Positions 705 through 59,892 of a stretch of 64,000 nt of DNA are shown piece after piece. Under the pieces are notes generated by a model. The model searched no databases. It was not told where the DNA came from and was given only the letters and a program-made list of their open reading frames with translations. Origin of the DNA: Malacoraja senta (lineage: Eukaryota); contig CM075989.1 of the NCBI GenBank assembly GCA_038087875.1, positions 20,710,001 through 20,774,000 of the forward strand. The letters are read 5' to 3'. The translations under genes were made by a program, and so were the position numbers. Numbering within the stretch: position 1 is the first letter of the stretch; each line of letters starts with the position of its first letter.

Positions 705-2299
705 ATTGCAGTGTAAGCAGCAGGTGGAGCTAGAAGCCAACCATTACAAACCCTGTGTAGACTTCTGCCAGAAAACTTTGGATTTGACCCATTGAACCCA
801 CAACATTCTGGGGCCATTTTCAAAATAGTCAAAAGCATTCATGTTTTATCGTAGGAATTTCTTATTTAAAATAAGGCAACTAATAGGGAGTTAAGTACCT
901 AGTGCACTGTAAAATTCATGAGCCGAGGCTACTTTGTAAAAATATGGACAGTAAAATCTGAAATGTTTACTTTGAGCAGTGAAAGCTAGGGAATTTAACT
1001 TTTGTGAATGATTAATTCACTGCATTTGATAGTCAACGTACAAAAATAATGAAAAAGGATATGAATTAATCAGTGACCAATGGCACATTTATTTTTAACA
1101 AGATTTTAATCACAAACATGAAAAAATACAAAAGTATGACAAAATGTACTTGTGCTACATGGAAATATTTAACCAGGGCTCAAAGATCAGATTCCTTTGC
1201 ATTTGGATCCAAACGGGTAACATCCCACGCCCAAAGCAGAGGCCATCGAGGATGCAGTGAATTACTGCAGCTAGTGTAAATCTTCTGCAAAGTACCCCAA
1301 ATAACATTGTGTGGTGCCCTGCAGAATTTGACTGGGGATGTTCCACTTGGACAGTAGCTTTGCCTTACGACAACCTGCTCTGAATAACAATCCAACAATA
1401 AGTTTTATGTTACAATTTTCCAAGACATAGAAAGTAGGTGCAGGTGGAGGCCATTTGGCCCTTCGAGCCTGCACCGCCATTCATTGTGATCATGGCTGAT
1501 CATCCACAATCAGTAACCCGTGCCTGACAACAGTAAGAGGTAGATGACTGGAGCTGCAGGCACAAAGACAAACTGAACTCACCACGTTCACCATTATCAC
1601 ATCCGTTGGACTTCAGACAGGACCTTTCAGGGGAATCAATCTTTGGCAAAGTGGGAAGAAGTACGACTGAGGCAAGTTGATTTGGATGAGTAGCTGCCGG
1701 TCATCCTAAAAGCAGAGGTGTCCAGTTGGGCTGCAGGTCAAAACTAACCAGAACCAACATGGATGGTCAGGAGCTGTGTCCTTAAAATTATATTTGGAAA
1801 TATCAATTTGCAGAGCAAAGGTTCAAGCTACTCAAACCAGGACAGGCGTTGAAGACACTGCTAACACACACATAGCCTGAGAATAAACAGACGTACATTT
1901 AGAAAGGAGGATGAGGAGGAATTTTTTTAGTCAGAGGGTGGTGAATCTGTGGAATTCATTGCCGCAGGCGGCTGTGTAGGCCATCAATAGATATTTTTAC
2001 GGCGTTAGACACAAAGTGCTGGAGTAACTCAGCGGGACAAGCAGCATCTCTGGAGTAATGTTTACTTCATGAGTAACATGAAGAGGTGACATTTCGGGCC
2101 GCGACCCTTCTTCAGCACTGATCATTCTGAAGGAAGGTCCCAACCCGAAACATGATCTATCCATGTTTCTCGGGAGATGCTGCCTGACCCGCTAAGTTAC
2201 TCCAGCACTTTGTGTCCTTTTGGGTAAACCAGCATTTGCAGTTCCTTGTTTCTACCTTCATTTTCCAACCCTGACCACTTGCAGATGATCAGCCATCGG

Positions 2300-2660
2300 T
2301 TGTGTGGGAAGGAACTGCAGATGTTGGTTTAAACACAAAATGCTGGAGTAACTCACCGGGACAGGTAGCAGCTCTGGAGAAAAGGAATGGGTAACATTTC
2401 GGGTCGAGACGCTTCTTCAGACTGAGAGTCAGGGGAGAGGGAGACAGGGACATGGAAGGGCAAGGTGTGAAAACGAGACATCAAAGGGAACAAAGCTCAA
2501 GGAAGATGCAGAATAGATCATTGTTAGCTAGGGGAAGTTGACAACGAAGCACACAAAGATAAAATTTAATCAGGAGGACAGTCAGATTGGTCGGATAACT
2601 AGGATAGGGGGAGGGATGGAGAGAGAGGGAAAGCAAGGGTTACTTGTAGTTAGAGAAGTA
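2300..2660 (-). mobile_element. Penelope-like terminal repeat, inverted relative to 2735-3208
   Basis: Reverse complement matches the UTR that follows the ORF stop at 31432-31830. Confidence 0.75.
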
Positions 2661-2734
2661 AACCTTGGTGTAAACCAGCATCTGCAGTTCCTTCCTACAC
2701 AAGGAGCACTCAGTTCGCCTTGGCCAACGTGATC

Positions 2735-3208
2735 TCCCGGATGCCAAACACTTTAACTCCCCTTCCCTTTCCCATACTGACCTTTCTGTCCTGGGCCTCC
2801 TCCACTGTCGGAGTGAGGCCACATGCAAATTGGAGGAACAGCACTTCATATTTCTCTTGGGCAACTTACAACCCAGCAGTATGAATGTTGATTTATCTAA
2901 TTTCAAGTAACCTTTGAATATCCTCCCTCCCCCCTCCCCACCCCAGTTGTCCTACTAGTTCCACTGTTCACATCTTTGGATCCCTTCGTTATCACATCTT
3001 CCCCAGCCAACAATGGATCATTGTGGACTCCACCCTCCCTTGGTCATCTGTCGCCTGCCCAGTTTTCTTCTGGACTTTTCTTACCTCCAGCTCCCTCCCA
3101 TCTACTTTCAGCCTAAAGAAGGATCCCGATCAGAAACGTCACCCATCCTTTTTCTCCAGAGTTCTCCCAGATCTGCTGAGTTACTCCAGCACTTTGTGTC
3201 TATCTTCA
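2735..3208 (+). mobile_element. Penelope-like element 3' fragment: GIY-YIG endonuclease C-terminus plus terminal repeat
   Basis: Translates KHFNSPSLSHTDLSVLGLLHCRSEATCKLEEQHFIFLLGNLQPSSMNVDLSNFK* (HF...LE..I..L....P.G/SMN pattern of PLE endonucleases), then a pyrimidine-rich UTR and a degraded hammerhead core at ~3113-3140. Confidence 0.8.
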
Positions 3209-3939
3209 GAGAAAGAATAGTAGGCCTGTGCGGCTGGGAATTGTTATGGACCCAAAACGCTGAAAAGACTCCTGTGCCGCAACAAGTAATTTGCAGAGAT
3301 TCTCTTTGATTGGAATTCCATGCAACATTTTAAACAGGAATCCTTTGATCAATTCTTGTTATTTTTTCCTCATTTTCCAATCTATTATTTTGCGGTAGTA
3401 TAGCAACATTTATAAAGAACTCTACCACCCCACCTCAAGTATTTCCTGCTTCCTATTCGATGATTCCTACTAGAACCTGTTAGATTTTCCTTCTTTCCCT
3501 CTCCCATCTCCTTACACTGTTAACTGTCGACGATAGTGAAGGAGGATGTTAAGTGGAACGTCTCCAGTTAAAGTAATTGGATAGAGATTTCAATTATTCT
3601 CACTGCCCCTTTGCAATGTGAACTGAATAACTCAGGATCTGTTGTGATAATCAATTGCAATGTTCCACCATGAACTAGTGTTCTGGTATGTATAACATTT
3701 TAAACTGATTTAACAGCTGCAACATTTTAAAAAAAAAACCCGAACATTTATACATCTGACAAAAATTCTGAGACCTAAAATATTAACTGTTCCCTATCCA
3801 CATATGCTACCCGACCTTCTGAAGGTTCCCTGTAAGTTGTGTTTATATTTCAGATGTTGTTTCTGCAGTTTAGTGATTTTCTTTCTTTTTTTAATATAGG
3901 GCTTATTATTTATTATACATAAGCATCTCACCTAATAGT

Positions 3940-4265: not shown

Positions 4266-4892
4266 TGACCATCTGATTTTTGTAGGAGGTGAGAAGAGAG
4301 AGTAATGCCCAATAATTCCAGAGAGCTCGAGTTACCTGTAGCAAAGAAACCCTCAAAACCGTGATTGAATTGAACCAGAACTCTGAACACACTAAGAAAC
4401 AGATTTCCAGTTTGTCATTAAATATGGTGGAAAAATACAACTGTACCAAATGCAGCCAAATTAAATTGATTAAAGATATCCACTAAAATGCCAGGAAGTC
4501 TGACAATTTTCCGACAAACAGTACCTGTGAATGATATTGCCATTTCCCATGTCAAATGGAATTCTGAAGACATAATATATATTTTTGCAATGCACTGTCA
4601 CAGATTAAGTTGGTCAACACGTACTTAAAAGCATGAGCTAGTATATGGCTGCAATACCCAAAATGTGTAAGTGAAAGAAATGTCTCTGCAGAGCTGAGGG
4701 TCAGGGTTACTTTAATAATGAGTGTTCCTATCTGAATGAGGGAAAATCCCTTCCCCCCCACGTTCACTCATTCATATCATTAAAGTTAAAATCTAGCATG
4801 CCCAATGCAGATTTCCCTTTTTTTCTTGACAATTTTCATGAAACCTTTTCAGGGATGAAGCTCTACTTTCAGATCCACACTGACCCTTTCAG

Positions 4893-5172
4893 GTTTAGTT
4901 TAGAGATACAGCGCGGAAACAGGCCCTTCGGCCCACCAAGTCCGCACCGACCAGCGATCCCCGCACATTAACACTACCCTACAAAAACGAGGGACAATTA
5001 TTTACATTTTATACCAAGCCAATTAACCCACAAACCTGCACGTCTTTGGAGTGTGGGAGGAAACCCACGCACGTCAAGGGGAGAGCGTACAAACTCCGTA
5101 CAGGCAGCAACCGTGGTCAGGATGGAACCCGGGTCTCTGGCGCTGTAAGGCAGCAACTCTACCACTGTGCCG
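4893..5172 (-). mobile_element. V-SINE
   Basis: Reverse complement of the same SINE consensus. Confidence 0.85.
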
Positions 5173-5400: not shown

Positions 5401-6084
5401 ACAGAAAAGTACCATCCAGGTGAAACACGGCACTGTTCCAAAATCTTCTGCAAAAGCAGAAGGTAGCAGCAAAATATAAAAAATTACAAATTGTAATTAT
5501 ACATGTGACGTGCATTACCAAATCCTGCCCCAAATACGTTAGATTTAATGCATAAACAATATTTGTTTTGTTTTTTGTAGTAAACAAATTTTTAATCAGG
5601 AAGAGAAGAAATCCAAGAAATTAAATGCAGTTGCAATGCACTGTGCAATGCAGTCTTTGTATTTCAGAAGGTAGAAAACTTATCAAAGACGTTTTTAATG
5701 TTTTGACGTTTGTTTCATCGTCAATGTGCTAAAACATCCCTCTTACTTGCAGCTTTGCCCTTTTGTTGAGGAAATACTTAAGATTAGTTTTGTTTCCACA
5801 GCTGTAGAATATTTCAATATTACTGCTGTTTGGATCTTTCTATTTACAGCCCCATCGTCCAAATATTAATTTTATCCATTGGAATGATACAATTCCAAAG
5901 CTTGTACAAAAAATGAATAAGGACAGCTAAATGTCCAGTTACAAACTACAAGTTTATCTACAGATAACTTGAACATAGGTTCAAGAACTTTAATAGTTGC
6001 ATGTTAAAAGGTGATACATGGGAACTGCAGATGCTGGTTTACAGAGTGACCCAGCTGATCAGGCAGCATCTCTGAAAAACATGA

Positions 6085-6124
6085 TGAGGTGACGTTTCAG
6101 GTCGGGACCCATCTTCAGACCCAC
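6085..6124 (-). ncRNA. Hammerhead core with 4-bp stem I, sense to LYSMD4, downstream of its stop (element ~6018-6197)
   Basis: Minus strand reads GGGU-CUGAAGA-U-GGGUC-CC-GACCU-GAAA-CG-UC-ACCU. Confidence 0.55.
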
Positions 6125-6831
6125 GCTGAAACATCTCCCATCCATGTTCACCAGCGATGTTGCCTGACCCGCTGAGTTACTCCAGCACTTTGTGTGTTTT
6201 TATAGTTACATGTTAGTCAATTAGCAAATAATTTATAAAAATTGTAATCTAGGTTGTCTTACAAAATGTGCCATGATTCAAAAGTTGAAAACAGAAAGGA
6301 CAAAATTAGAGGATTAGCATTATTTGATACTGGGAGACAATGTCTAAATTGTGATATTAACTTAATTCTATTTATTAAAATAATTTGATAATAAATCTCA
6401 ACAGTGCATGGCACAGCTGGCAGTGCCCATTGCACTTTGCCTGGTAACTCCTTGTTGAACAAGAGCTGGCTTACCAGCAGTCAATCACTTCAAAGAAATG
6501 GCAATCACTTTTTAACTCCTGATAGCATGGTCATAAACTCTAGAATTAGATCATTCCAATAAATTTTCCTTAAATTATCACCCGTGCTAAACACCCTGCA
6601 GTCGTACTACAAAAAGTTGCAAAACAATTACAGAGAATAACAGGGAAAGTCCACCTCCAAGTTAATTGGACCAACACAAGCGACGTTGCTATCACAGTGA
6701 AGGTCTAACGATGGAATAGGCATCCCTGCACTGGTACAAATACATCTCCACTGATCCAAAAGCAAATGTTCCAGCTAGGTACTGCGTCCAGTTTATCAAC
6801 TAATACAAAATTCATGTATATTTTATCCCAT

Positions 6832-7392
6832 TCATCCATTTGAAACTGCTGCGGGATTTGATTGCACAGTAGTTGAGATCGTACCATTTGACCCAGCTGC
6901 AGAATGAGTCAACATTGATGGGTCCACTGGATTTTCAGGTTCTTGAATTTTATAGTACACTATGTAAAATATTGGAATAATGACACCGATTAAAAGCATG
7001 ATTACCAAAGCATTCCACCATCGAATACCCCAGTCCGCACCGTGATGTGAATTCTTTGGAGACAGCGCCCCCAAATTAAATCCATTGGACTTCTGACAAT
7101 AAATCACTTCTTCCAAACGATCTTTAGACTGATCTGTAGATTGGATTAACTTCTCAATATCCTTGTCAATGTCTTCAAAAAATCCACTCAGTTTGTTCTT
7201 CTCTGTGCCTTGGCCCTCTGCAGCGCAGGCCTCTGGGCACGGATCGGTTCTGCTGTGTGCAGCCTGCCGCCGCTTTGCCTCTTCCTGCGCCTCTGTCAAC
7301 AACCCGTGCCTTTTCACCGGAATTTTTATCGTCCTTAAGGCAAAGAAGTCTTGATCTTTGATGAGATTGTTCACCCGCTTGAGGTCTGCAAC
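6832..7392 (-). CDS. LYSMD4: LYSMD4-like, last coding exon (186 aa + TGA): end of LysM domain and transmembrane helix
   Basis: Acceptor ttttgcttctgttAG at 7394-7393 joins in frame: ...[30 protein letters not shown]...[11 protein letters not shown]...[33 protein letters not shown]. The WWNA, MLLIG, GFF-IDxDIE and KIQ motifs favour LYSMD4 over LYSMD3 (recalled comparison, not a search). Spliced product is 278 aa. Confidence 0.88.
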   Translation of the reverse strand, partial: [186 protein letters not shown]

Positions 7393-7994
7393 CTAACAGA
7401 AGCAAAAGTTTAATTCACTGTACTGCATTTGGATACCTTAATAATGTAAGTTATTTATGGAGTCACAGAGCAGAGAAACAGGACTGATCACCTTATCAGA
7501 TATCAAAATCAAATGTAATATAGATGCATCTTTTATCAATGACTTAAATAAATTAATATCCTATTTATTCCACATTTGTACTATTCACAAAATAAAGTCT
7601 TAGAATTAAATCTTAAAGATGTGCAGTGGAATATTTTAAATCTAATGTTAAGCAGACCTCTACTTGCAGTAAGGCACTGACATGTTTTTAGTTTCTCCTG
7701 CTACATCTGGTATCATTTCATGATGGAATTCAGGGAACGGAGCCAAGAATGTTGAAGGCATTTTTGGCAATGGGCGGTGTTAGAGAAGGAGGAGCACACA
7801 ATCACAGCCAGAGAAATGAAGAGTGAGGTTGGAGGAACTTAGGAGAAAGCAAGGTCTGGAGAGGATTTAAACGGGGGAATAACTATTTTAGATTTGACGC
7901 ACTAAGAGACAGAAACACCTAGAAACAAGCAACAACAGGCTAAAGAATTATGGGAATGCCACAGGTTAGATGTTGCAGAGTTATTTAGTATAAT

Positions 7995-8392: not shown

Positions 8393-8586
8393 GGGCCGCT
8401 GCTTATGTGTAGTGTTTCATGGAGGGTAGAATTGAGGAGATTAATGACGGAACATTAACGCCCAAATTGATAATTGATAACAGAGAAAGTGTTCAAACTC
8501 CACACACACTGACAGCAGTAGAGATCAGGAGATACAAGGAACGGCAGGTGCTAGTTCACAAAAAAGGACACAATGTGCCAGAGTAA

Positions 8587-10181: not shown

Positions 10182-10209
10182 CTGAAGAAGGGTCTTGACC
10201 CGAAACGTC
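10182..10209 (+). ncRNA. Minimal hammerhead ribozyme core in a PLE-derived repeat (element ~10093-10310)
   Basis: CUGAAGA-A-GGGUC-UU-GACCC-GAAA-CG-UC; stem I is only ~2 bp, so activity is uncertain. Confidence 0.6.
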
Positions 10210-10443: not shown

Positions 10444-10628
10444 TCTTTAAGAAGGAACTGCAGATGCTGGAAAATCGAAGGTAGACAAAAGTGCTGGAGA
10501 AACTCAGCGGGTGCAGCAGCATCTATGGAGCGAAGGAAATAGGCAACGTTTCGGGCCGAAACGTTGCCTATTTCCTTCGCTCCATAGATGCTGTTGCACC
10601 CGCTGAGTTTCTCCAGCACTTTTGTCTA
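10444..10628 (-). mobile_element. Short fold-back hairpin element derived from a PLE terminal repeat
   Basis: Near-perfect palindrome 10482-10628 centred on 10555; 12-bp TSD TCCTTGAAGAAG (10432-10443 and 10629-10640). Confidence 0.85.
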
Positions 10629-10853
10629 TCCTTGAAGAAGGCAGCCAGTTACATCCAGGAGGAGATTTAAAAGGGACAGAAGGCCAAAATAATTTTGCAT
10701 ACAAATGAGTGGTGGCACAATTAGCTGGAAACGACACTCAGCTATAATTTCCAGCCAGGGTAAAAAGATAAAATGTCATTTGACACAAAGGATGAAACTT
10801 TGCAAACTCAAGCCAACGAAAAAGAACCATAATAACTGTTTTTTAAAACTTAC

Positions 10854-11129: not shown

Positions 11130-11158
11130 ACTACTGACACCTGGAACAGAGAATTACA

Positions 11159-15289: not shown

Positions 15290-16520
15290 AATAGGTGGGA
15301 GGACACGTTGCAATCAGGATATTTGGACTCTGCAACAGGATATGGATAGGTTGAGTGTGTGAGAGAAAATGTGACAAATGGAGTTTATTATGGGAAAGTG
15401 TGTGATCATCCACCTCAGTTAAAGGATTCTATAGATAAGACACAAAAAGCTGGAGTAACTCAGTGGGTCAGGCAGCATCTCTGGAGAAAAGGAATAGGTG
15501 ACATTTCGGGTCGAGACCCTTCTTCAGGCTATCTATAGATGTAATCTCCAGATGGATTAGTATCTAATTGAATTGAATACATTTTATTAGCCAAGTATGT
15601 ATACATACAAGGAATTTGTCTTGGTGCTTTACTCGCATGGATAACAACACAATAAACAGAAGACAATTAAAAATAAAACATTATAATTTAAACATGTGAA
15701 GAATAAAATAAAAGATCAGAGCGAAAGGAGGCTACAGAATTTTGGCTATTGAATAGAGCTACTGTTCATGGAAAAAAGCTGTTTTTATGTCTGGCTGTGG
15801 CGGCTTTGACAGTCCAGAGTCGCCTTCCAGAGAGAAGTGCTTCAAAGAGTTTGTGGTCAGGGTGAGAGGGGTCAGAGATGATCTTACCTGCTCGTGTCCT
15901 GGCCCTTGTAGTGTACAGTTCGTCAATGGGGGGAAGGTTGCAGCCAACAAAAATTTGTGAAAGACTGCTGGTGAATGAAGTACAAAGGAACCCAAGTGCT
16001 ATAATATATGAATCTCAAACAAGTTAACAGGCAGGTGCAACAAGTGTATTGGAAAGTAAATGGCATGTTGGCTTTTATTGCAAAAGTTGCAGTTTAGAAA
16101 GTGGGAGGTATTGTTACACTTATACCTGGCGAGGCAATACTTCGAATGGCGAGCACAATTTTGGTTGCCATATTAAGGATGTACAGCAATGAAGGCAGTC
16201 CAAAAGAGATTCTCTAGGCTGATTACCCACATGAGAGGATTGGACTATCATGAACGGCTAAAAAATTATTTCTACATTCTTTGGATTTTTGCAATATGAA
16301 AGGTGAACTTATTGTGATGTACATGATCTGAAGGGGGCAAGACGGGTAGGGAGAGATGTTTTCAACAGTGGGCAAATGGTGGAACATAATTACAAGATAG
16401 GGGTTGGTCATTGAAAATTGAGGTGCACAGAAATGTTTTGAGACTGTGGTTAATCTAGTCAAGATTAGAAGACTTCTCTGTAACAGCTGTGAGGTGGTGG
16501 AATGCCGAAACGCAGAGATT
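15290..16520 (+). mobile_element. Degenerate CR1 RT fragment, interrupted by PLE and Rex pieces
   Basis: LQQDMDRL and GMLAFIAK-like remnants with frameshifts. Confidence 0.65.
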
Positions 16521-20099: not shown

Positions 20100-21560
20100 T
20101 GGCAAGGTCCCACATGGTAGGCTGGAAGGTTAGGACAAATGGGATCCAGGGTGATCTAGCCAATTGGATACAGATTGACTTGGAGATAGCAGGTAGTGGA
20201 GGGTGGTTTTTCAGATTGGAGGCCGGTGACCAGTGGATTGTCACAGGGATCGGTGCTGGGTACCCTGCTTGTTATATATTGATTTGAATGCAAAAGTAGG
20301 TGGCGTCATTGGTAAGTTTGCAGGTGGCACCAAAATTGGTGGTATAGCGGACAGTAGACACAAAAAGCTGGAGTAACTCAGCGGAACAGGCAGCATCTCT
20401 GGAGAGAAAGAATGGTTAAAGTTTTGAGTCGCGACCCTTCTTCAGACTGGACAGTAAAGTAGGTTACTCAAGGTTTCATAGCAGGATATTGATCAACTGG
20501 GAAAATGGGCAAAGGAATGGCAAGTTAAATTTAACTTGGACAAATATGAAGTAATGCATCTTGAGAAGTTAAACCAAGTAAGGACAAACACAGTGAATGG
20601 AAGAGCTCTGGGGAGTATTGTTGAAAAGAGAATCCTGGGTGGGACATGTACATAGTTTCCTGAAAGTGGCCACATAGGTAGAGAGGGAGGTAAAGAGAGC
20701 ACAAGGCATGCATGATTTTGGCAGACATGGCATTGTGTACAGGAGTTTGAACGTCATGTTATAGTTGTACCAAGCATTGGTTAGACTGCAAATGGAATGC
20801 TGTAGGTAGACAAAATTGCTGGAGAAACCCAGCGGGTGCGGCAGCATCTATGAAGCGAAGGAAATAGGCAACGTTTCGGGCCGAAACGTTGGCTATTTCC
20901 TTCGCTCCATAGATGCTGCCGCACCCGCTGAGTTTCTCCAGCAATTTTGTCTACCTTCGATTTTCCAGCATCTGCAGTTCCTTCTTGAACAAAATGGAAT
21001 GCTGTGTCCAGTCTTGGTCCCCATGCTATTAAAAGTAGTATGTGATTAAGCTAGAGAGGGTGTAGGAAGCATTTACCAGGATGTTGACTAAACTGGAGGA
21101 ATTAGAAGGAGAGATTGAATCAGATGGGACTGTGTTCCCTGCACCGAAAGAGGGTGAGGGTTAACTTTCAAGTTTCTAAAATTATGTGGGGATTAGATGG
21201 CGTAGATGGTCATAGTCTTTTCTCCTAAGGTAGGACAGTCGAAAGTAGGGAATAGGTGGGGTCTGAAGAAGGGTCTCAACCCAAAATGTTTTAAGGTGAG
21301 TGAGATACAATTTAAAGGGGATCTGAGGGACATTTCTTTCCCCCTCACATAAGAGTGGTAAGTATATAGAACAAGCTGCCTGAGTGCATGGTAGAGGCAG
21401 GTACATTTACAATGTTTAAAAAATCACTTGGACGGATATGTAGATAGGAAAGGTTAAGAGGAATATGAACCAAATGAAGGAAAAAAGGATAGGCTTAGAC
21501 AGACATCCTGTTCAACATGGACGTTGAGCCAAAGGCTCTGTTTCCATGCTGTATGAATTG
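20100..21560 (+). mobile_element. Degenerate CR1 RT fragment with nested PLE-derived inserts
   Basis: GIQGDLANWIQ, SKFAGGTKIGGIADS-like and WQVKFN remnants. Confidence 0.75.
20804..20991 (+). mobile_element. Short fold-back hairpin element (same family)
   Basis: Palindrome 20804-20956 centred on 20880; 14-bp TSD AAATGGAATGCTGT; inserted into a CR1 relic. Confidence 0.85.
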
Positions 21561-27288: not shown

Positions 27289-28114
27289 AGACTCCTTGGG
27301 CATGAAGCTATAGGCTAGCATGGAGATTTGCAGTGGGAATGAATAAAATGCATTGTACTATTATTGAATATCAAATGCAGGCATTTGAAGCTGGTGAGCA
27401 CGGTCCATATATTTTTTTAATTTATTGGACTTTCTTTGGTTTATTGTGTTATCTATGAATACAGTGTTGACAGACTATTGTGTTGCTACAAGTAAGAATT
27501 TAATTGGTCCCCTTTCGGTACATATGACAATCAAACACACTTGAGAAATAGAAACAAAGAACTGCCCATGTGGCACAAAGTGCTGGAGTAACTCAGCGGG
27601 TCAGGCGGCATCTCTGGAGATCATAAATAGGTGTTGTTTCGGGTCGGGACCCTTCTTCAGACTGGACTCATAACTATCCAAATGCCTTCCTTGCATTTCT
27701 GTAAGTTCTGTTTGCCTGGGGCAAGAAGATGAATCCTGGAGGTGCAAGATATTGCAGATGCTTGGACCTGGAGTAAATAAATAAGCTGCTAGAAAGACTC
27801 AACAGGTCACGCTGTGGAGTCAAAGTGATGGTCGACGTTTCAGTTTGCGAACCTGCATCAGGATGAATCAGACCCTGAGTCTGAAGAAGGGTCTCAACCC
27901 GATACGTCACCTATTCCTTTTCTCCAGAGATGCTGCCCACTGAGTTACTACAGCATTTTGTGTCTATCTTGGGTATGAACCCTCCTTTAGTCTGAAGACA
28001 CCCACCCATGTCTTCTATAAACGCCTGCTGACCTGCTGAGTTACTCCAGCACTTTGTGTTCTGCTCATGCCTCCTTACGAATGTTGTTAATGTCCTTGGA
28101 AGTATCTTGAGAGC

Positions 28115-31304: not shown

Positions 31305-31831
31305 GTTCCACATACACTGGCCTTTCTGTCCTGGGCCTCCTCCACTGTCGGTGAGGCCAAACGCAAATTGGAGGAACAGCATCTCATTTTTCGCTTGGGC
31401 AGCTTACAACCCGGCGGTATGAAAATTGATTTCTCTAATTTCAAGTAACCCTAGCATTCCCTCTCTCTCTCCGTCCCTCCCCCACCCTAGTCGTCCGACA
31501 AGTTTCACTGTCACGCTGCTTATTTACACAGTTCGTATCCCCTCGTTATCACCTTTTCCGCAGCCAACAATGGACCATTGTGGGCTCCACCTTTCCTCAA
31601 TCATCGGTGCTGGCTTGATTAGTTCTTTTCCGTGCCTTTCATTTATTTGTTCTTTATACCTTTTTGACACCTCTGGTTTCCCTCTTCCCCGACCCTCAGT
31701 CTGAAGAAGGGTCTTGACCGGAAACGTCACCTATTCCTTTTCTCTAGAGATGCCGACTGTCCCGCTGAGTTAATCCAGCATGTTGCGTCTATCTTCGGTG
31801 CAAACCAACAATCTGCAGTTCCATCCTGCAC
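31305..31831 (+). mobile_element. Penelope-like element 3' fragment with hammerhead core at 31701-31728
   Basis: ORF end EAKRKLEEQHLIFRLGSLQPGGMKIDFSNFK* (stop 31448), then UTR and CTGAAGAAGGGTCTTGACCGGAAACGTC. Confidence 0.85.
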
Positions 31832-34642
31832 GTTTAATTTAGTTTAGTTTATGATTGTCACGTGTACCGAGTGGGAAGTGTTTTGTTGCATGCTATCCAG
31901 TCAGATAGAAGCCTGTACATAATTACATTCAAGCTGTCCACATTGTACAGATAAACGGCACAACATTTAGTGCAAGATAAAGTCGAATTAAAGACAGACA
32001 CAAAATGGTGGAGTAACTCAGCGGGACAGGCGGCATCTCTGGATAGAAGGTATGGGTGACGTTTCGGGTCGAGACCTTTCTTCAGACTGAATTAAAGACA
32101 GTTCAAAGGTCTTCAATGAGGTAGATGGGAGGTCAGGTCCACGTTCTAGATTTGCGAGAGGACCATTCAGTTGCCTGATAACAGCAGGGAAGAAGCTGGC
32201 CCTGACTCTGGAGGTATGTGGTATGTGCCAAGGCAGTGTCTACAGCTGAATAGTTGGACTCAGAACTGTACACAATTAGCATTTTCATGTTCATAAGTTA
32301 TTGGAGCAGAATTAGGCCATTCGGCCCATCAAGTCTACTTAATCATGGCTGATCTATCTATCGTTCCCTCTCAACCCCATTCGATGAGGTGAATGCACAG
32401 AGTCTTTTATTCAGAGTATGGAATCAAGGAGAAGAGAACATAGGTTTAAGGTGTGTAGGAAAGAACTGCAGATGCTGGTTTAAATCAAAAATAGGCACAA
32501 AATGCTGGAGTAACTCAGTGGGACAGGAAGCATCTGTGGAGAGAAGGAATGGGTGATGTTTCGGGTCGAGACTCTTCTTCAGACTGAGGTGAGTGGGGAA
32601 AGATTTAATAGGAACCTGAGGGGCAGCTTTTTACACAGAGGGTGGTGATGGGTGTGTGGAACGAGCTGCCAGAGTAGGTAATTGAGGCAGGTATTGTCAC
32701 AACGTTTCAATGACATTTGGACAGGATAGAAAAGGGTCTGGGCCAAAACCAGGCATGTGGGACTAGTGTAGACGGGGTATGTTGGTTGACGTGGGCAAGT
32801 ATCGTTCCACATTGTATCGTTCCAAAACTCTATCAAATCTAATTAAAATAATGCATGCAACCAAAGAAATTACAGGATTTGCTTTCAAAATACAAAACAA
32901 ATTAAAATGACAAAATATAATAATTTCCAAATTTGCAGCTTACTTAAGAAATAATCGTAGATGCATTTGCTTATTATCATCCACGTGAGATCGCAAACCG
33001 GATTTAAGCAAGGAACTACACTAGAATTGTCTCCTTGGTCATTAGCGATAGCTGACAGTAATTAAACATTAACTGGGGCACTTCCTGCAGTTGGTTATGT
33101 TCCACGTTGCTGAATGGTGATTTCCTAAATTTAGTAAATTAATTAGTCATAGTCATAAAGCACAGAAACAGGCCCTTCGGCCCAACTCGTCCATGCTGTC
33201 CAAGTTGCCCCCTCAGCTAATCCCATTTCCCCTGCATTTGGCCCATATTCTTCTAAACCTTTCCTATCCATGTACCTGCCCAAATGTTTATTAAATGCTG
33301 TAATAGTACATGCCTCAACTGCCTTCTCTCGGTCCATGTACACATATATTGTTGAAATAAAGTCACATTCTACCCTTCCAAAGGCCACCAGATTCAAGGA
33401 CAGCACCTTCTCTGCTGTTTAGCAGACTCGTGAATACCCTTCCTCCTGTATCCACCTATCACTCACCTGGCTTTGTCCTCCCTTCTCTTTTCCAGCTTTC
33501 TCCCCCACAACCCGATCACAATCAGTCTGGAGAAGGGTAGGGTCCTGACCCAAAACGTCACCTATCCACGTTCTCCAGAGATGCTGCCTGACCTGCTGTG
33601 TTACTCCAGCACTCTGTGAAACGTTACCTATCTGTGTTCTCCAGAGATGCTGCCTGACCCGCTGTGTTACTCCAGCACTCTGTCTTTCTCCATGTCTGAG
33701 CTGGCCAGTTCTCCTATAGGTTGCCCACCTTTAATAATAACTCTGTTTGATCTCACCCCACTATCATTTCCTGTCTGACCTGCTGGAATTTACCACAATG
33801 CTGAATTACATTTTCACAGCTTTTACATCACCTTTTCCTTTATCTATGTCTGAACACTCGATTAGTCAATCATCCGCTTCATCAGAAACCTTATCACCAC
33901 GGCAACCCTAAAAGCAGCAACACAGGTGGATAGGGTGTTATAGAAGGCGTACAACATACGTGCCTTCATCGGTCAGTGTTTTAAGTAAAAATGTTGGCAA
34001 GTCATGTTGCATTTGTATAAACCATTTGGTTAGACAACACCTGAAGAAATCAGACTCAAGAAGGGCCCCTGCCCGAAACGTCATCTATCCATGTTCTCCG
34101 GGGATGCTGCCTGACCCGCTGAGTTACTCCAGCACTTTGTGCCTTTTTCCGTAAACTAGCATCTGCTTTTTCTTGCTTCTACTATTTGAAGGATCATCGC
34201 AGTTCTGGTCACCTATATATACTATGTCACATATATCACATACTATGGGCAATGCGAACATTGAGAAGGCTTTGGAGAGGGTGCAGAAGTGGTTCACCAG
34301 GGGCGTTTCCTGGACTAGACAGTGTGAGCCATAAGGAGAGGCTGGACAAAGGTGGATACTTTTTTCCAGAGCGCTGGAGGCTGAGAGGTAAGCTGATAGA
34401 AGTATATAGACAGGGTAGAGACTGAGAGTCTATTACCATTGGAATCACAACCATTCTGCAAAGGATGTCTCCGATTTTTTGGGGGAGGAGGGTCAGTACC
34501 CATGATGGACCGGGCAGTTTTCACACTTTTTGTAATCCACTTTGTTCCTGAGCATTCGAGTTGATGAACCAGGCCGTGATACAACCAGTCAATTTTCTAA
34601 CTAGTAATATCTAGACAACTAGACAATAACTAGTCAATATGT

Positions 34643-34827
34643 TTAAGAAGAAACTGCAAATGATGGAAAATCGAAAGTAGACAAAAGTGCTGGAGAAACT
34701 CAGCGGGTGCAGCAGCAGCATCTATGGAGCGAAGGAAATAGGCAACGTTTCGGGCCGAAACGTTGCCTATTTCCTTCGTTCCATAGATGCTGCTGCACCC
34801 GCTGAGTTTCTCCAGCACTTTTGTCTA
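34643..34827 (-). mobile_element. Short fold-back hairpin element (same family)
   Basis: Same GTTTCGG-G-CCGAAAC centre; TSD AACT(A/G)GTCAATATGT. Confidence 0.85.
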
Positions 34828-35510
34828 ACTGGTCAATATGTACATCTGTCAAAGTCCAAGAAAGTATATCCTTCTCCAAGGGCAATAGCAATGACCAATA
34901 AATGCTGGGTTTGTCGTTGAATGCCAAAAAAAAATCCTTCTCTGATAATTTTTAAGCCGAATCTAATTTTTGAAATGCAGTTGTGGTATAGGATTAAATT
35001 GAATAGAGCGGACTCAAAATAAAGAGTTGTCAAGGAATAGTCAAGAATAATGCATATAGAATTGCTTCTAGTTACCGATGCAGGCATTACTGCGGGTTTG
35101 TGTTGTGAAGGAAAAGCTGCAGTCAACATGATGTACCACAAGGGGTCAGTGTTGAACCATTTTGATGCCAGATAGACACAAATGCTGGAGTAACTCAGCG
35201 GGTCAGGCCAGCATCTGTGGAGAGACGGAATGGGTGACAAGGGTCTCGACTCGAACCATCACCATTCCTTCTGTCCAGATGCTGCCTCTCCCGCTGGGTT
35301 ACTCCAGCTTTTTGTGTCTATCTTCGGTTTGAACCAGCATCTGCAGTTCCTTCCTACACATTTTTGATGGAAGTTTATCACTAACTTAACTGCAAAAACT
35401 GCGACAGTTTCTCGACCCGTGACCCCGTACTGTTGCTACGCTACGCCAACTGGAGTACACCGGCATGAACTGCAGGTAAGCACTGACCATTGTTTCCAGC
35501 GTAGCGGGGC

Positions 35511-37577: not shown

Positions 37578-37605
37578 CTGAGGAAGGGTTCGGACCCGAA
37601 ACGTC
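37578..37605 (+). ncRNA. Minimal hammerhead core with 3-bp stem I
   Basis: AGU-CUGAGGA-A-GGGUU-CG-GACCC-GAAA-CG-UC-ACU. Confidence 0.55.
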
Positions 37606-42267: not shown

Positions 42268-42336
<69 letters not shown>

Positions 42337-42644: not shown

Positions 42645-42686
<42 letters not shown>

Positions 42687-49738: not shown

Positions 49739-49766
49739 GACGTTTCGGGTCGAGACCCTTCTTCAG
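49739..49766 (-). ncRNA. Minimal hammerhead core, consensus copy (element ~49640-49770)
   Basis: Minus strand reads CUGAAGA-A-GGGUC-UC-GACCC-GAAA-CG-UC. Confidence 0.6.
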
Positions 49767-50123: not shown

Positions 50124-50435
50124 GTAGACAAAAGTGCTGGAGAAACTCAGCGGGTGCAGCAGCATCTATGGAGCAAAGGAAATGGGCAACGTTTCAGGCC
50201 GAAACCCTTCTTCAGACTGATGGAGGGTGGGGGAGGGGGGTGGGCGGGGAGAAGAAAGGAAAAAGGAAGAGGAGGAGCCCGAGGGCTGAGGGAGAGCTGA
50301 GAAGGGGAGGGGACAACAAGGGCTACCTATTTCGTTGCCTATTTCCTTCGCTCCATAGATGCTGCTGCACCCGCTGAGTTTCTCCAGCACTTTTGTCTAC
50401 CTTTGATTTTCCAGCATCTGCAGTTCCTTCTTAAA
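50124..50435 (+). mobile_element. Longer member of the same PLE-derived subfamily, retaining an antisense hammerhead core at ~50178-50216
   Basis: Inverted arms with a purine-rich spacer; flanking duplication CTCCTTATTT..TAT. Confidence 0.75.
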
Positions 50436-52253: not shown

Positions 52254-55200
52254 TTACTCCAGCATTTTGTGTCTATCTCCTTGTCCCCCGATACATTTGG
52301 GTCATGAACCCATCCTCCATGCAACTGCAGTAACAATGAAGATCAATGATCAGCGTGAGTATTATTAAATCACCCTTGTTCCGTGTTTCTCCCAATTCCA
52401 TGAATGATACCGTGCCCAACACTACAACTTCTGCTGAGAGGACGGAGCTACAGACTAACATTAGCGTTGCTTTCTGTCCCGTTGATGTTTCTTGATGCCA
52501 TCCCAACCCGTCCCTTCCATTTGCAAACAAGACTCCTGTGGAGTCCAGCATGCAACTTGCTCCACTGAATGATTATCAATCTTCCAAGTATTGAGTGGCT
52601 ATAAATGCCAATTATTTATACTGTCACTGTTGCCATTAAGTATAAGTTATTGGCAATTTAAAAAAAATGCACAGACGATTCCTTAAATTATAGCATTTCC
52701 TGAAAATCTGACATCGGCGTGCTGGAAAATTATGCAAAGAGAAAATCTTTGTAAGTAGCAGTAATAAATATCTACAAACAGTATTCAAGAAATGATGCTC
52801 GTGAATAGCAAAGTTTCAAAACTAATATATTTTCTGTTTAAACACTGCAAAGCTTCTACAAATAATGTGAACTATACTATCTTCTAACAGGCTGATGGAT
52901 ATACTGTTTAATCTACACACTCTGTGTTAGTTACTTGCAGTTTAAAGACATTGGATAAATGTACACGAGGATTACTGCTCATCTGTTTCATGGATTATTG
53001 ATTGTGGAGCATTTAACACGTTGACATGTTGCTCTTAATATTCGAGCATTCATAAACAGTTTAAGTTCAAAATGAAAAACAATTCCCGACTTCATGCATA
53101 ATGATAAATAAAAGATAACTCCCTGGAATAAATATCGAGGGCTAACTTCATATTATCCTAATACTGAGAGTTAACATTCAACAGTGTTTGTTTATAGCTA
53201 TTAATTAAAAGGCACTTGAAATCCTGGGCTTTTAAAGAATTTGTCAAAATAGTTCTGAGCAAAAAACTGTATTTTTAAATGAGCCAGTGTTTGATGCTTG
53301 GAAAAATCTGTGGTTATCTAATCTATCTAAGCCCCTCGTAATTTTATAAACCCAGTATAGAATATATAACCTATAACAGTACAGCACAGGAACAGGCCTT
53401 TCGGCCCACAATGTCTGTGCTGAGCATGATGCCAGGTTAAACTAATCTCCTCTGCCTGCCCGTGATCCATATCCCTCCATTCCCTGCACACCCATGTGCC
53501 TATCTAAAAGCCTCTTAAATGCCACTGTCGTTTCTGCCTCCACCATCACCTCTGGCAGCTCGTTCCAGGCACTTACGATCCTCTGTAATAAAAATCTTGC
53601 CCCACTGAACTATTTCAATGTTTAGAAAGTGGGAGGTGGGTGGTAATTCTGATCTCCCTCGGTGATCCTCATTCAATACCAGAGTTTACAAAGTGGTGAT
53701 ACAGGTAGACAACAACATTTTAGAGATTGAGGGGTCTCGACCCAAAGCGTCACTCCAGGGATGCTGTCTGTCCCGCCGAGTTACTCCAGCACTTTGTGTC
53801 CCTCTTCGGTGCAAACCAGCATCTGCAGTTCCTTCCTAAACATTTTAAAGACATTTGGACAGGTACATGGATAAGAAAGGTTTGGAGGGATAAGGGACAA
53901 ATGTGGGCATGTGGGACTAGTGCAGGGCCAGGGCATGTAGGTCAGCATAGGCAAGTTAGGGTGACTCTACGACTCTATGACAGGGTGATAAAGTCGGCTC
54001 TTGTCGCGCTTGCCTTCCTTTTCCACTTTTCCCCAAGTACATTAAGTGTCCTGGAGAGAAGGAATGGGTGACGCTTCAGTCTGAAGAAGGGTCTCGACCC
54101 CAAACGTCACCCATTCCTTCTCTCCAGAGATGCTGCCTGTCCCGCTGAGTTACTCCAGCTTTTTGTGTCTATCTTTGGTATAAACCAACATCTGCAGTTC
54201 CTTCCTACACTTGTAGGAAGTATCCTTTTAGGTAATATATTTGTGTCTGTAGATGGCAGTGTTGCACCATATTGCTTTCATATTATCTTGCTCCCATCCT
54301 CCCCAATATATATTCACACACAATACTTTCTTCCCAATCAGTGGGGTCTACATCTTAAGTTAACCAAACTGGATTCCTTGCTGAATAACATCACATTCCC
54401 TATTTATGCGATTCTTATTTTTTTCCTCCCTTCCATTTAAGAAAATGCAAATTTAGTTTGTCATTTGTATGTGAAATTGCTATTTTTCTGTAACTTCTGG
54501 CAATTTGAGTACAGGTAAAAAATTGTGTTACAGGTGAAAGTGCATTAATATACACAATTATGTCATTTTACTTTCAGATTTACTGCAATTGAAAACACTG
54601 CAATTAATAATCTTTTCCTTTCAATTACAATCTTGTCTGTTCTATTTTTTATTTTTTTTTGAAAATATTTTTTATTGGAGATAAGTACACAACATATTAT
54701 CATCATTACCAGTCTTACATTTTTAAATTGATAATATTGTCAATTATTATTACATTGTCTCCAATACCTTTTGCCTTTTTTTGTTTTTTTTAAACTAAAT
54801 AGAACTAAAAAGATAGATGAAGTAAAGAAAGAAGAGAGAGAGAGAAAGAAAAAAACAAAACAAAAACAAAAAAACAAAACAGAAAAGAAAAAGATAGTTA
54901 AAGAAGAATGGAAAAATGTATTAAGATAAAAAACTTTGTTCGAGATATATTCGTACATTTCAGAGTATAACATTTCATCCATTCTTTAGCCCGAGTGTTA
55001 GTCAGGTTATTGTCTATTCTATTTTGACAATGGACTGGTTCAATTTATGTTATTTCCAATATGAAAAATCAGTTCATACAAAGCTCACAATTTATGAATA
55101 CTCTGTCTTGATGCTGTGCTGTCTAAGGAGATGCTGAAATGATCTGAGATGTGATGATTATTGGAAACCCTGCTGTTTCAAAATAATTATGGTTTAATGT

Positions 55201-56009
55201 ACTGATGAGGAAGCACTTTTAAAAGATGTTACATTGAGAGCAACCATTTTACGAAGGAAATTGGTTCCTTCGTTTATTTTTAATGGTGGCCAGAATGGAT
55301 GACTTTTCAAGTGTATGGTGAGGTTGCAGGTGCTACCATGTGGCAATGCGTGAGGCCCAGCGCAAATTGGGGGAACAACCCCTCATATTTCACTTGATAG
55401 ACGCCAAAAGCTGGAGTAACTCAGCAGGTCAGACAGCATCTCTGGAGAAAAAGAACAGGTGACGATCGGGTCGAGACCCTTCTTCAGAGTCTAAAGAAGG
55501 GTCTCGACCCGAAATGTCACCTATTCCTTTTCTCCAGAGATGCTGCTTGACTCGCTGAGTTACTCCAGCTTTTTGTGTCCAACTTTGGTTTAAACCAGCA
55601 TCTTCAGTTCCTTCCTTCTCATAATTCGCTTGGTCTGCAGCAGGGTGAGGCAGCAACTCTACCAACTGCGCCACTGTGCCACCCATGATTTTTTATCTTT
55701 TCCCTTTTTCTCTAAACCTAATCGAAATAAGTTTATTTTTAGGAACTTAAGTTTATAGTTACTGCTACTGGTATACCGAAAATATTTCTCAAGCGTTTAA
55801 TTAAAGAGGATTAAAACTCTACATAATGCTGCTTGAAAATAATTCTGATCTCTCTACCTTATCCTTGGGGGATCAGACCATGTGCTGACAAACCATTCTG
55901 TATACAGATTCATCACATGGAGATCAGAGCAAGCAGAAGAAAAATGTTTACTCCAGGTTAAACCAAATTTCTGACTTGGAGGCACAAAAAACTGCAGATG
56001 TTGCGGTCT

Positions 56010-58079: not shown

Positions 58080-58416
58080 ATAGATACATAGATACATAGA
58101 AAATAGGTGCAGGAGTAGGCCATTCGGCCCTTCGAGCCTGCACCGCCATTCAATATGATCATGGCTGATCATCCAACTCAGTATCCCGTACCTGCCTTAT
58201 CTCCATACCCTCTGATCCCTTTAGCCACAAGGGCCACATCTAACTCCCTCTTAAATATAGCCAATGAACTGGCCTCAACTACCCTCTGTGGCAGAGAGTT
58301 CCAGAGATTCACCACTCTCTGTGTGAAAAAGTTTTTCCTCATCTCGGTCTTAAAGGATTTCCCCCTTATCCTTAAGCTGTGACCCCTTGTCCTTGACTTC
58401 CCCAACATCGGGAACA
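58080..58416 (-). mobile_element. CR1 3' fragment, near-identical to 24883-25215 and 36590-36798
   Basis: GKSRTRGHSLRIRGKSFKTEMRKNFFTQRVVNLWNSLP. Confidence 0.88.
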
Positions 58417-58767
58417 GAGGGATGAAACCGGAGCACCCGGAAAAAAACCCGCTCAGTCACAAGGAGACCATACAAACTCTGTGCGGACAGCACCCATGGT
58501 CAGGATCGAACCTGGGACTCTGGCCGTGTCCATTGACCCTGCTGATCCTCGCCTCTCCCCCAGTGACCAGCAGGCCAGGGCCAGCACCTCACCTGGATTC
58601 CAGGCCCAGTTGCGAACCGATTCGCTGAAGAAGCGTGTCGCGTGTCGACCCAAATCGTCACCTACCAATGTCCTCCAGATACACTGCCTGACCCGCTGAC
58701 TGACTTTGTGTCCGTTTGTGTATTGACCAGCAACTGCAGTTGTTTGTTGTTACTATTGATACTATAC

Positions 58768-59052
58768 AATAAAGGGGAGGTCATTTAAGACTGAGGTGAG
58801 AAAAAACTTTTTCACCCAGAGAGTTGTGAATTTGTGGAATTCCCTGCCACAGAGGGCAGTGGAGGCCAAGTCACTGGATGGATTTAAGAGAGAGTTAGAT
58901 AGAGCTCTAGGGGCTAGTGGAGTCAAGGGATATGGGGAGAAGGCAGGCACGGGTTATTGATACGGGACGATAAGCCATGATCACAATGAATGGCGGTGTT
59001 GGCTCGAAGGGCCGAATGGCCTCCTCCTGCACCTATTTTCTATGTTTCTATG
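58768..59052 (+). mobile_element. CR1 3' fragment
   Basis: Same coding end and tail. Confidence 0.85.
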
Positions 59053-59892
59053 ATACAATAATACCTTATATAGACACAAAATGCTGCAGTAACTCAGCGG
59101 GACAGGCAGCATCTCTGAATAGAAGGAATGGGTGACGTTTCAGGTCGAGACCCATCCTCAGACTGTCGGTGGGGGGGAAACCGGAGCACCCGGAGGCAAC
59201 CCACGAGGTCACAGGGAGAACGTGCAAACTCCACACAGACAGCACCCCGAGGTCGGGATGAGACCTGGGTCTCTGGCGCTGTGGCTCTACCAGCTTCCTT
59301 GGAATTGCAAAGTTCTAGTTTGATATTGGTTTCAATAAGTGATCACTGTTTTCTGTTTGACAGCATTAATGCTGGAGATAAATATGTTTTTTTTTTAAAA
59401 GCACCAATTCTTATGGAGGATTAATTAGATTTTATGAACACTGTTGAAATATCATTATGTCTTATGTAATTTTGCATCATTAAATTCTGTTAAACAGTAC
59501 GATGTGTTAAAGTCTCCCTTGGCTCAAGTATTTAGGCAGCTGTTGGGAGGGGAATGTAATCTTGAGGTAGAAACAATGTAGGGCGCAGTTGTTCTTATGT
59601 TGAACTCATTTAAAAGATGAAGAATCTTCAATTAGCACAGCAGCTTAATTCCGTGAAAGAGAGTGGTTCAACACGATTATCACTTTGGCCAAGCGGTTAT
59701 GGTTTGTAAAGAGGAGAACTGAACTGTAAAAATCAAGGTGGATCTTGCACTAAACGTTATTCCCTTTATCCTGTATCTGCCATCGTGGATGGATTGATCG
59801 TAATTTAGTTTAAGAGGATTTTCGATAGGCACATGGATATGTGGGGTTTGGAGGGATATGGATCGCAGGCATGTAGGAGAGATTAGTTTAAC

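What the first reader, a model, noticed from the sequence alone, without database searches (positions are those of the whole stretch)
2088..59161. Roughly 30 minimal hammerhead-ribozyme cores scattered through 64 kb, carried by a Penelope-like terminal repeat
Seen: the commonest short repeat here contains CTGAAGA-A-GGGTC-nn-GACCC-GAAA-CG-TC. The best copies are 10182-10209(+), 31701-31728(+), 37578-37605(+), 49739-49766(-), 15500-15527(-) and 6091-6118(-); by eye there are about 30 whole or degraded copies. At 2735-3208 and 31305-31831 the same repeat directly follows a GIY-YIG endonuclease C-terminus. Known: CUGANGA/GAAA/UH is the hammerhead catalytic core, Penelope-like elements carry minimal type-I hammerheads whose tiny palindromic stem III (here ACGU) is completed by dimerisation, and an extra base after A9 is tolerated in some natural hammerheads. 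Inference: this lineage carries a very high-copy ribozyme-bearing repeat (about one per 2 kb here). Caveat: stem I is only 2-4 bp in most copies.
Basis: partly seen in the sequence, partly recalled or inferred. Interest (0 to 1): 0.72.

Follow-up and report, generated by a model that had tools for sequence, protein, structure and literature searches.

The report
Skate Penelope retrotransposon ends with hammerheads
About 40 copies of a minimal hammerhead ribozyme motif sit in this stretch of DNA, which likely comes from a skate or ray; they are mostly decayed short ends of a Penelope-like jumping gene, a known association, and are likely passengers rather than working ribozymes.

Summary
There are 41 cores (0.02 expected by chance), within 79 fragments of one ~135-bp repeat that covers about 12% of the window. 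Twice the repeat lies 200-250 bp behind the C-terminus of a GIY-YIG-type endonuclease whose named relatives are skate, ray and whale-shark proteins. The motif fits the published consensus of Penelope-like (PLE) minimal hammerheads: CUGANGAH, G10.1-C11.1, palindromic stem III, extra base after A9. Only 8 copies are complete, stem I is 2 bp in the family majority, and the catalytic G12 decays like any CpG. So the copies are mostly fossils; 6 compensatory changes suggest the parent elements kept the fold. Cleavage was not tested. Best reading: these are short cDNAs, likely primed at two internal sites on uncleaved RNA. Verdict: a new member of a known kind.

The parts
2701..2910 (+). Last 69 codons and stop codon of the PLE GIY-YIG-type endonuclease
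   Evidence: phmmer: 91 hits at E<=0.001, best 3e-18; named hits are skate, ray and whale-shark proteins; aligns to the C-terminus of homologs that carry the YIG motif and Cys linker further upstream
2302..3206 (.). Largest insertion, head-to-head. Minus arm 2302-2660: stop-codon region, 3' UTR, core 2393-2420, tail. Then a tail piece 2665-2700, the endonuclease end, 3' UTR and a degraded core 3113-3140, ending without tail
31316..31831 (+). 5'-truncated copy: frameshifted endonuclease end (stop 31446-31448), 3' UTR, core 31701-31728 (stem II closing pair broken), tail
   Evidence: stretch laid on four public runs
10182..10209 (+). Complete minimal hammerhead motif: CUGAAGA, extra A, 4-bp stem II, GAAA, palindromic CG, UC; predicted cut after 10209; stem I 2 bp
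49739..49766 (-). Complete motif, stem I 2 bp; heads a single tailed copy 49642-49770
6091..6118 (-). Complete motif with the longest stem I (4 bp, supplied by junction Gs); one arm of pair 6022-6201
37578..37605 (+). Complete motif, stem I 3 bp
50188..50215 (-). Complete motif of subfamily B (UUCG loop, U-G in stem II, GUU cut triplet, U-G in stem I), preceded by its own 3' UTR
59134..59161 (-). Complete motif, stem I 2 bp
15500..15527 (-). Complete core without stem I; single untailed copy 15433-15530 with a 9-bp target duplication
2088..2115 (-). Complete core, stem I disrupted by a 1-nt insertion; arm of pair 2006-2255
54175..54210 (+). Example of the optional ~35-bp tail (+95 to +130, with C3 of the ribozyme as +1), in copy 54076-54211
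   Evidence: copy ends cluster at about +87 to +97 and +123 to +132; a 30-40-bp tail is a described PLE feature
27742..27865 (-). Divergent copy with three compensatory pair changes (both stem I pairs, one stem II pair); its A9 is mutated
10446..10633 (.). Palindromic head-to-head pair of subfamily B, joined at a 15-nt near-palindrome in stem II/GAAAC; lacks CUGA; one tail; target duplication of about 12 bp
20804..20990 (.). Second B palindrome, same centre, one tail, 14-bp target duplication
34641..34830 (.). Third B palindrome, same centre, one tail, target duplication
31990..32090 (-). Typical single short insert, -4 to +96, with a 13-bp target duplication that overlaps the 5' edge by 2 nt

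Best explanation
These are the 3' terminal repeats (pLTRs) of a Penelope-like retrotransposon, likely of the Neptune clade and likely in a skate or ray, each headed by a minimal type-I hammerhead motif; most copies are short, decayed insertions that were likely made by target-primed reverse transcription of uncleaved RNA. Shown: the repeat follows the endonuclease stop codon and 3' UTR; it fits the published PLE hammerhead consensus; copies end at two places about 35 bp apart; many carry 8-16-bp target duplications; many are head-to-head pairs with one tail. Inferred: (1) the parent elements kept the fold under selection and could cut after GUC/GUU only as a dimer through ACGU, probably slowly and with protein help; (2) the element's protein nicks the target and starts reverse transcription inside the RNA at about +93 or +130, as the anole PLE does in vitro at two sites that bound the tail; (3) copying passes through the uncut ribozyme and stops a few bases beyond it, which gives the 95- or 135-bp singles; (4) when both target strands are primed, one from each start site, the two cDNAs anneal through short matches or the repeat's own palindromes and give the one-tailed head-to-head pairs; (5) after insertion the copies decay neutrally, so the high count reflects insertion rate, not ribozyme function.
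For: Protein: 91 phmmer hits, named ones from Rhinoraja, Leucoraja, Hypanus and Rhincodon. Three homologs carry a C-x3/4-C-x2-C linker before the endonuclease, the motif given for Neptune in PMC8557442. Motif: matches 'CUGANGAH G..C GAAA N palindrome N U H' with U-rich upstream; 2-bp helix I is listed for Culex, D. virilis and Oikopleura. Structure: 6 of 8 double changes in stems I and II restore a pair, against 2.06 expected from marginals; covariation score reached by 1 of 500 shuffles; the four differences of subfamily B in the motif are all fold-compatible (P about 0.03, post hoc). Insertion marks: target-duplication score >=9 in 14 of 42 units against 24 of 600 random; 18 of 19 hand-grouped pairs have exactly one tail and none has two (p=4e-5 against 0.5). 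Uncleaved template: 37 of 67 hits start at -4 to 0, and 4 of 67 start at +26 to +28 next to the cut; PMC11167929 found uncut RNA to be the dominant substrate and the ribozyme protein-assisted. Decay: G12 is mutated in 13 of 51 copies; core CpG sites 31 of 140 against flank CpG 11 of 69.
Against: No RT, no GIY-YIG motif and no full-length element lie in the window, so the clade rests on homologs, and Nematis also has a Cys linker. Pfam gave nothing for the two window peptides and only sub-threshold GIY-YIG hits in 3 of 26 homologs. Rfam found no hammerhead family. Non-CpG core conservation is not clearly above the flank (15 changes against 25.5 expected, p=0.015; p=0.12 without the two edge positions, which the alignment favours). 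Three of the 6 compensatory cells are in one divergent copy, and hairpin-templated repair could make stem II changes without selection. The hammerhead fold is not the lowest-energy monomer fold (-4.2 against -7.5 kcal/mol for copy 49766); the ACGU duplex is only -1.7 kcal/mol; and the whole repeat is no more structured than shuffles (z -0.8 to +0.9 in 6 copies). Pairs were grouped by hand; one ambiguous pair was left out, and three arms are little more than a tail.
Confidence: 0.8

Rival explanations
1. The ~95/135-bp unit is a non-autonomous SINE-like or retrozyme-like family in its own right, transcribed from its own copies and mobilised by the PLE protein, rather than a by-product of full-length transcripts.
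For: Most copies have similar ends and lack any ORF. In the public runs the summed contig depth over the ribozyme is 2-3 times the peak over the endonuclease end. PMC4209133 lists SINE as a keyword, and the 2026 preprint derives animal retrozymes from pLTRs, with one chondrichthyan genome positive.
Against: No tandem array of core-bearing units lies in the window; the one tandem (33553-33683, 66-bp unit) lacks CUGA. Short copies share diagnostic sites with long, UTR-bearing copies of each subfamily. Their 3' ends are the two PLE tail boundaries, not the cut site that a retrozyme circle would give. Arms of pairs start anywhere from -4 to +102.
Confidence: 0.12
2. The motif is a relic in this lineage: with a 2-bp U-A/G-C stem I it no longer cleaves in any form, and the sequence persists as promoter, splice signal or protein-binding site.
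For: Stem I reaches 3 bp or more in 2 of 8 complete copies. An alternative helix that sequesters the core or stem II is the predicted minimum-energy fold. Core conservation is inconclusive. Naiad PLEs spread without canonical hammerheads, and cleavage was dispensable for the anole PLE in vitro.
Against: The core is unchanged across subfamilies whose UTRs diverge right up to -5; both stem I pairs are compensated in the divergent copy; 2-bp helix I occurs in other PLE hammerheads.
Confidence: 0.25
3. The dispersed copies are maintained by the host as working ribozymes that process host transcripts.
For: High density, including copies inside an intron of a host gene (7392-10776, minus strand).
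Against: 27 of 35 fully covered copies are broken and G12 decays at the CpG rate. The three intron fragments in the gene's sense lack an intact core, and the intact one (10182) is antisense. Single copies cannot complete stem III.
Confidence: 0.03
4. The palindromic pairs are a MITE-like DNA element that moves as a unit.
For: Three subfamily-B palindromes share the same centre.
Against: Target duplications vary from 8 to 16 bp, the arms are asymmetric by the tail, and the other 16 pairs have differing junctions.
Confidence: 0.05

Closest known systems
[quoted passage not shown]
   Same: CUGANGAH core with an extra base after A9, G10.1-C11.1, GAAA-CG-UH, U-rich upstream, location in the pLTR, mostly dispersed singles, and opposite-strand pairs close together. 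The Acropora Neptune entry has the same layout with a 4-bp stem II and 4-nt loop.
   Different: No chondrichthyan among the 40 species of Fig. S3. Stem I is 2 bp with a U-A closing pair, at the weak end; the listed 2-bp cases are G-C pairs. Local density is about one core per 1.6 kb.
Neptune-clade PLEs (as described in PMC8557442)
   Same: [quoted passage not shown]
   Different: RT and linker are absent from the window, so the clade is not shown directly. No microsatellite target preference was apparent by eye.
Poseidon element of Anolis carolinensis (PMC11167929)
   Same: Two internal ends that bound the tail downstream of the hammerhead; ribozyme uncut in the copies.
   Different: There the ORF starts in stem II; here no start codon lies there. 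That paper saw no difference in start site between strands, whereas pairs here use one site each in 18 of 19 cases.
Non-LTR retrozymes (bioRxiv 10.64898/2026.07.22.740005)
   Same: Non-coding, PLE-related, type-I hammerhead, many solo copies.
   Different: Defined by tandem units that each hold a hammerhead; none in this window.
D. virilis Penelope (PMC2377424, PMC4209133)
   Same: 2-bp helix I. A pyrimidine tract and AG just before the ribozyme here parallel its intron acceptor at the 5' end of helix I. Internal promoter in the pLTR.
   Different: Its start site is about 120 nt upstream of the ribozyme (46 nt plus a 75-nt intron); here copy ends point to an RNA end or stop only a few bases upstream. 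No intron was shown here.

Membership tests
Minimal PLE hammerhead (type I) | Core C3-A9, G12-A15.1, U16.1, H17 in order | tested here: met
   Majority at every column; 8 complete motifs against 0.1 in shuffles
Minimal PLE hammerhead (type I) | Extra nucleotide between A9 and 10.1; G10.1-C11.1 pair | tested here: met
   A in 38 of 43 copies; the pair is G-C in 23 and G-U in 7 of 36; feature stated in PMC4209133
Minimal PLE hammerhead (type I) | Palindromic 15.2-16.2 in place of stem III | tested here: met
   CG in 22 and UG in 7 of 36; 7 broken by CpG decay or other change
Minimal PLE hammerhead (type I) | Stem II of 4 bp or more with covariation | tested here: met
   90% of cells paired; 3 of 4 pairs with a two-sided change. 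Weak: 4 cells, and the control ignores relatedness
Minimal PLE hammerhead (type I) | Helix I (consensus 3 bp; 2 bp in some listed members) | tested here: inconclusive
   2 bp in the majority, 78% of cells paired; compensated only in copy 27742-27865
Minimal PLE hammerhead (type I) | Self-cleavage after NUH as a dimer | not testable with these tools
   Only contigs, no raw RNA reads, were available
EN+ Penelope-like element | C-terminal GIY-YIG endonuclease | tested here: met
   C-terminal part only, by homology: 56% over 71 aa to P0006, E 2e-18, which carries the YIG motif upstream (Pfam hit below cut-off)
EN+ Penelope-like element | Telomerase-related RT in the same ORF | tested here: inconclusive
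   Absent from the window: tblastn with three homologs hits only the two endonuclease ends; no genome held
EN+ Penelope-like element | Inverted 5' copy, 30-40-bp tail at one end, target duplication | tested here: met
EN+ Penelope-like element | Direct pLTR-ORF-pLTR tandem | not testable with these tools
   No full-length copy in 64 kb
Neptune clade | CX2-5CxxC linker and RT phylogeny | tested here: inconclusive
   Linker seen in homologs P0006, P0018 and P0029, not in the window; no RT tree built
Non-LTR retrozyme | Tandem units each with a complete hammerhead | tested here: not met
   24 tandem-repeat rows, none with a core-bearing unit; window only

The most novel reading that the evidence does not exclude
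The dominant repeat here is a 'strong-stop' product of a PLE. Transcription starts at an initiator (TCAGT) 2-4 nt before the hammerhead; the RT starts internally at +93 or +130, runs off the capped 5' end (leaving an extra G) and integrates a 95/135-bp piece; and every two-sided insertion uses each start site once, which reveals an asymmetric protein dimer working on uncleaved RNA. Support: 716-947 contigs per run in three runs break off into random AT-rich DNA at -2 and at -1, with G as the consensus last letter in 7 of 8 run-by-position rows; 5 of 6 independent window junctions at -2/-1 are preceded by G (p about 0.01, post hoc); 18 of 19 pairs have one tail. Against: 5' edges spread from 0 to -8; the TCAG could equally be a splice acceptor or a palindrome used for joining; no RNA ends were seen.
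Probability: 0.3. Interest if true: 0.55.

Novelty: new member of a known kind. Interest (0 to 1): 0.3.

Why it matters
As a ribozyme finding it extends a known association to cartilaginous fishes, which my searches did not find in print, and shows that raw motif counts greatly overstate working ribozymes. Its main value is as a dense natural record of PLE integration: about 70,000 contigs per public run match the element's end, enough to test in vivo where reverse transcription starts and stops, whether the template is cleaved, and how the tail and the inverted arm arise, all open points in PMC11167929 and PMC8557442. The palindromic pairs also mimic microRNA precursors in Rfam scans, a trap for annotation.

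Tried and rejected
Rfam at E<=1: 19 matches, no hammerhead family; all are sub-threshold hairpin families, most of them over the palindromic pairs. No whole genome held. The search for homologous proteins with the 69-aa peptide, longer proteins only: 13 candidates, none at E<=0.001. ESM Atlas: no usable hit. Pfam on the two window peptides: none. DNA patterns found nothing in metagenome, prokaryote-genome or viral contigs, and the protein alignment found no locus in metagenomes (302 pattern matches, none confirmed), so no full-length element and no outside ribozyme copies were obtained. Sequencing runs: no RNA holder listed; all four runs laid are contigs, so no RNA ends; table 6 was empty and 2,460 loose-end rows were not shown, so the count at the cut site is unknown. 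Considered and rejected by inspection: a type-III reading with a cut after UC at -3 (C15.2 would need a G at -5, which none of the five long copies has); a splice donor in the endonuclease end that would lengthen stem I (three GT sites checked by eye in copy 31316-31831, none extends pairing past 2 bp); retrozyme array. Literature: 'hammerhead ribozyme + Penelope + skate' 0 papers; '+ shark' 1, an irrelevant mention; 'Penelope + cartilaginous fish + skate + repeat' 1, listing only. Lunse et al. is not held, and Dfam/Repbase could not be searched, so the family may already be catalogued. Supplement file 1 of PMC4209133 and the supplements of the 2026 preprint (which names its one chondrichthyan) were not seen. 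Earlier scan notes: none by sequence, none for eight words, 358 for 'Penelope hammerhead'.
Full report
Numbering. C3 of the hammerhead core is +1; the predicted cut is after +28.

1. The observation. A 28-nt probe finds 41 sites with at most 8 mismatches, against 0.02 in 50 shuffles. The core heads a repeat of about 135 bp: 67 profile hits, or 79 blastn fragments in 50 loci, 11.7% of the window with the UTR pieces; 37 fragments are on plus and 42 on minus. A descriptor that does not use the probe finds 8 complete minimal hammerheads against 0.1 in 100 shuffles. Rfam does not see them.

2. What the repeat belongs to. At 2701-2910 and 31316-31448 lie the last codons of an ORF. The 69-aa piece has 91 relatives at E<=0.001. 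Of ten looked up, eight are named, from Rhinoraja, Leucoraja, Hypanus and Rhincodon. Longer homologs carry a YIG motif and a C-x3/4-C-x2-C linker upstream of the matched part; Pfam GIY-YIG is hit below cut-off in 3 of 26. PMC8557442 gives CX2-5CxxC as the Neptune linker and notes a related motif in Nematis (passages); the 2026 preprint finds only Neptune and Poseidon in its vertebrates (passages). Neptune in a batoid is therefore likely but not shown: no RT or further ORF lies in the window. A pyrimidine-rich 3' UTR of 200-250 bp separates stop codon and core; five long copies diverge from one another up to -4/-5 and converge at TCAG. Four coded public runs from three organisms each hold many matching contigs (71,497; 78,332; 71,730; 6,264 over the 541-bp stretch at 80% likeness). 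These are assembly pieces, not copy numbers.

3. Is it a hammerhead? The motif matches the consensus of PMC4209133 Fig. S3 point by point, including the extra base after A9, G10.1-C11.1 and the palindrome at 15.2-16.2 (main text parts 1-2 and supplement 2 parts 1-2 read). On 36 copies, 86.5% of cells pair; the covariation score is reached by 1 of 500 shuffles, pairs with two-sided change by 23 of 500 (this control ignores relatedness). Eight cells in stems I and II have both partners changed; 6 restore a pair, against 2.06 expected; three are in the divergent copy 27742-27865. Subfamily B differs at four sites in the motif, all fold-compatible. That is modest support for selection on parent elements. 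Against activity: stem I is 2 bp in the majority; the hammerhead is not the minimum-energy monomer fold; ACGU pairs at only -1.7 kcal/mol. Published PLE motifs cleave weakly and only as dimers, or need the element's protein.

4. The copies are fossils. Of 35 hits that cover all 28 positions, 8 are complete. G12 lies in a CpG and is changed in 13 of 51 copies; core CpG positions are changed in 31 of 140 cells and flank CpG in 11 of 69. Non-CpG core positions show 15 changes against 25.5 expected from base-matched flank (p=0.015), but p=0.12 without the two edge positions: inconclusive.

5. How the copies were made. 3' ends cluster at about +87 to +97 and +123 to +132, the PLE tail; in the anole element these two boundaries are the RT start sites (PMC11167929, parts 1-2 read). 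Target duplications score 9 or more in 14 of 42 units against 24 of 600 random. Nineteen hand-grouped pairs are head-to-head; 18 have the tail on exactly one arm, one on neither, none on both (the pair at 27742-27981 was left out as ambiguous). 'Often only at one end' is in print, as are inverted pLTRs with palindromic junctions (PMC3846280 passages); I found no count of the rule (searches). Junctions often use the repeat's own symmetry: TCAG-T-CTGA at 30264-30272, and a 15-nt near-palindrome in three B pairs. 5' ends: 37 of 67 hits start at -4 to 0 (the reference begins at -4, so this includes the long copies) and 4 at +26 to +28. So the templates were mostly uncut, as in vitro. Among 35 copies other than the five long ones, the match to known UTRs ends between 0 and -8; four or five with pyrimidine-rich upstream could belong to unseen subfamilies. 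Of five singles with a strong target duplication, three start at -2 to -4. In the public runs, 716, 933, 939 and 91 contigs break off before -2, and 771, 903, 947 and 80 before -1, into sequence with no consensus (agreement 0.31-0.33) except a final G in 7 of 8 rows; the peak before -4 is partly another UTR subfamily. In the window 5 of 6 independent -2/-1 junctions follow a G (three junctions that overlap a partner arm were dropped). A capped RNA starting at an initiator would give this (initiator consensus and cap-derived G are recalled, not from a call). A splice acceptor as in D. virilis, whose intron ends at helix I, or joining through the palindrome are the alternatives.

6. Comparison and verdict. 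It works like, and meets the testable sequence features of, the minimal hammerhead of PLE pLTRs; cleavage, RT and full-length structure could not be tested. It is not a retrozyme array in this window. No chondrichthyan appears in the 2014 list, and three searches found no paper on this in sharks or skates, but one chondrichthyan genome is positive in the 2026 preprint (part 1 and passages read) and repeat databases were out of reach. Other papers seen: PMC6155905, PMC8969392, PMC2377424 and PMC6765202 as passages. Verdict: real, correctly identified, a new member of a known kind; interest 0.3, carried mainly by the testable insertion signatures.

Noticed in passing
window 6832-7392 and 10776-11153 (minus): Two exons of a host gene with a LysM-like domain split across the intron and a C-terminal hydrophobic segment; looks like LYSMD3/4 (name recalled; Pfam gave no significant hit on either exon). 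Repeat fragments in the gene's sense inside this intron all lack an intact core.
   Followed up: partly
window 13308-14915 (minus): Open 535-aa frame with an RVT_1 reverse transcriptase (E 1e-36); by eye an L2/CR1-type LINE 3' part, not the Penelope RT.
   Followed up: partly
P0002, P0006, P0009, P0090, P0030: Several public gene models, with named skate and ray cases (neuromedin-U receptor 1, ATP synthase C3-like), and others with RecQ5 or NYAP domains, include this PLE endonuclease tail: frequent exonisation or gene-prediction artefacts.
   Followed up: no
window 10497-10613, 20807-20953, 34698-34806, 55440-55538: The head-to-head pairs score as microRNA-precursor families in Rfam below threshold; transcripts would form long hairpins that could feed small-RNA silencing.
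   Followed up: partly
window 35711-35924: A long hairpin hit by Rfam microRNA models that is not among this repeat's fragments; probably another palindromic element.
   Followed up: no
window 2665-2700: A tail piece (+95 to +130) sits directly before the endonuclease fragment of an arm that ends at +95, as if a circular or permuted intermediate had been opened at the tail boundary.
   Followed up: partly
repeat positions +9 to +12 with +17 to +20 or +29 to +32: GGGU can pair with either of two ACCC-like repeats; subfamily B changes A to G in both. Possible switch between the hammerhead and an inactive fold. A further helix, +48 to +55 with +106 to +113, needs the tail.
   Followed up: partly
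window 26453-27288 and 41603-42703: An 800-bp 16-nt minisatellite and a 1.1-kb CA repeat.
   Followed up: no
window 70-140, 4880-5170, 62650 and elsewhere: Many tRNA-like SINE heads and CR1-type LINE ends, resembling the elasmobranch HE1/HER1 pair (names recalled); some PLE copies are inserted into them.
   Followed up: no
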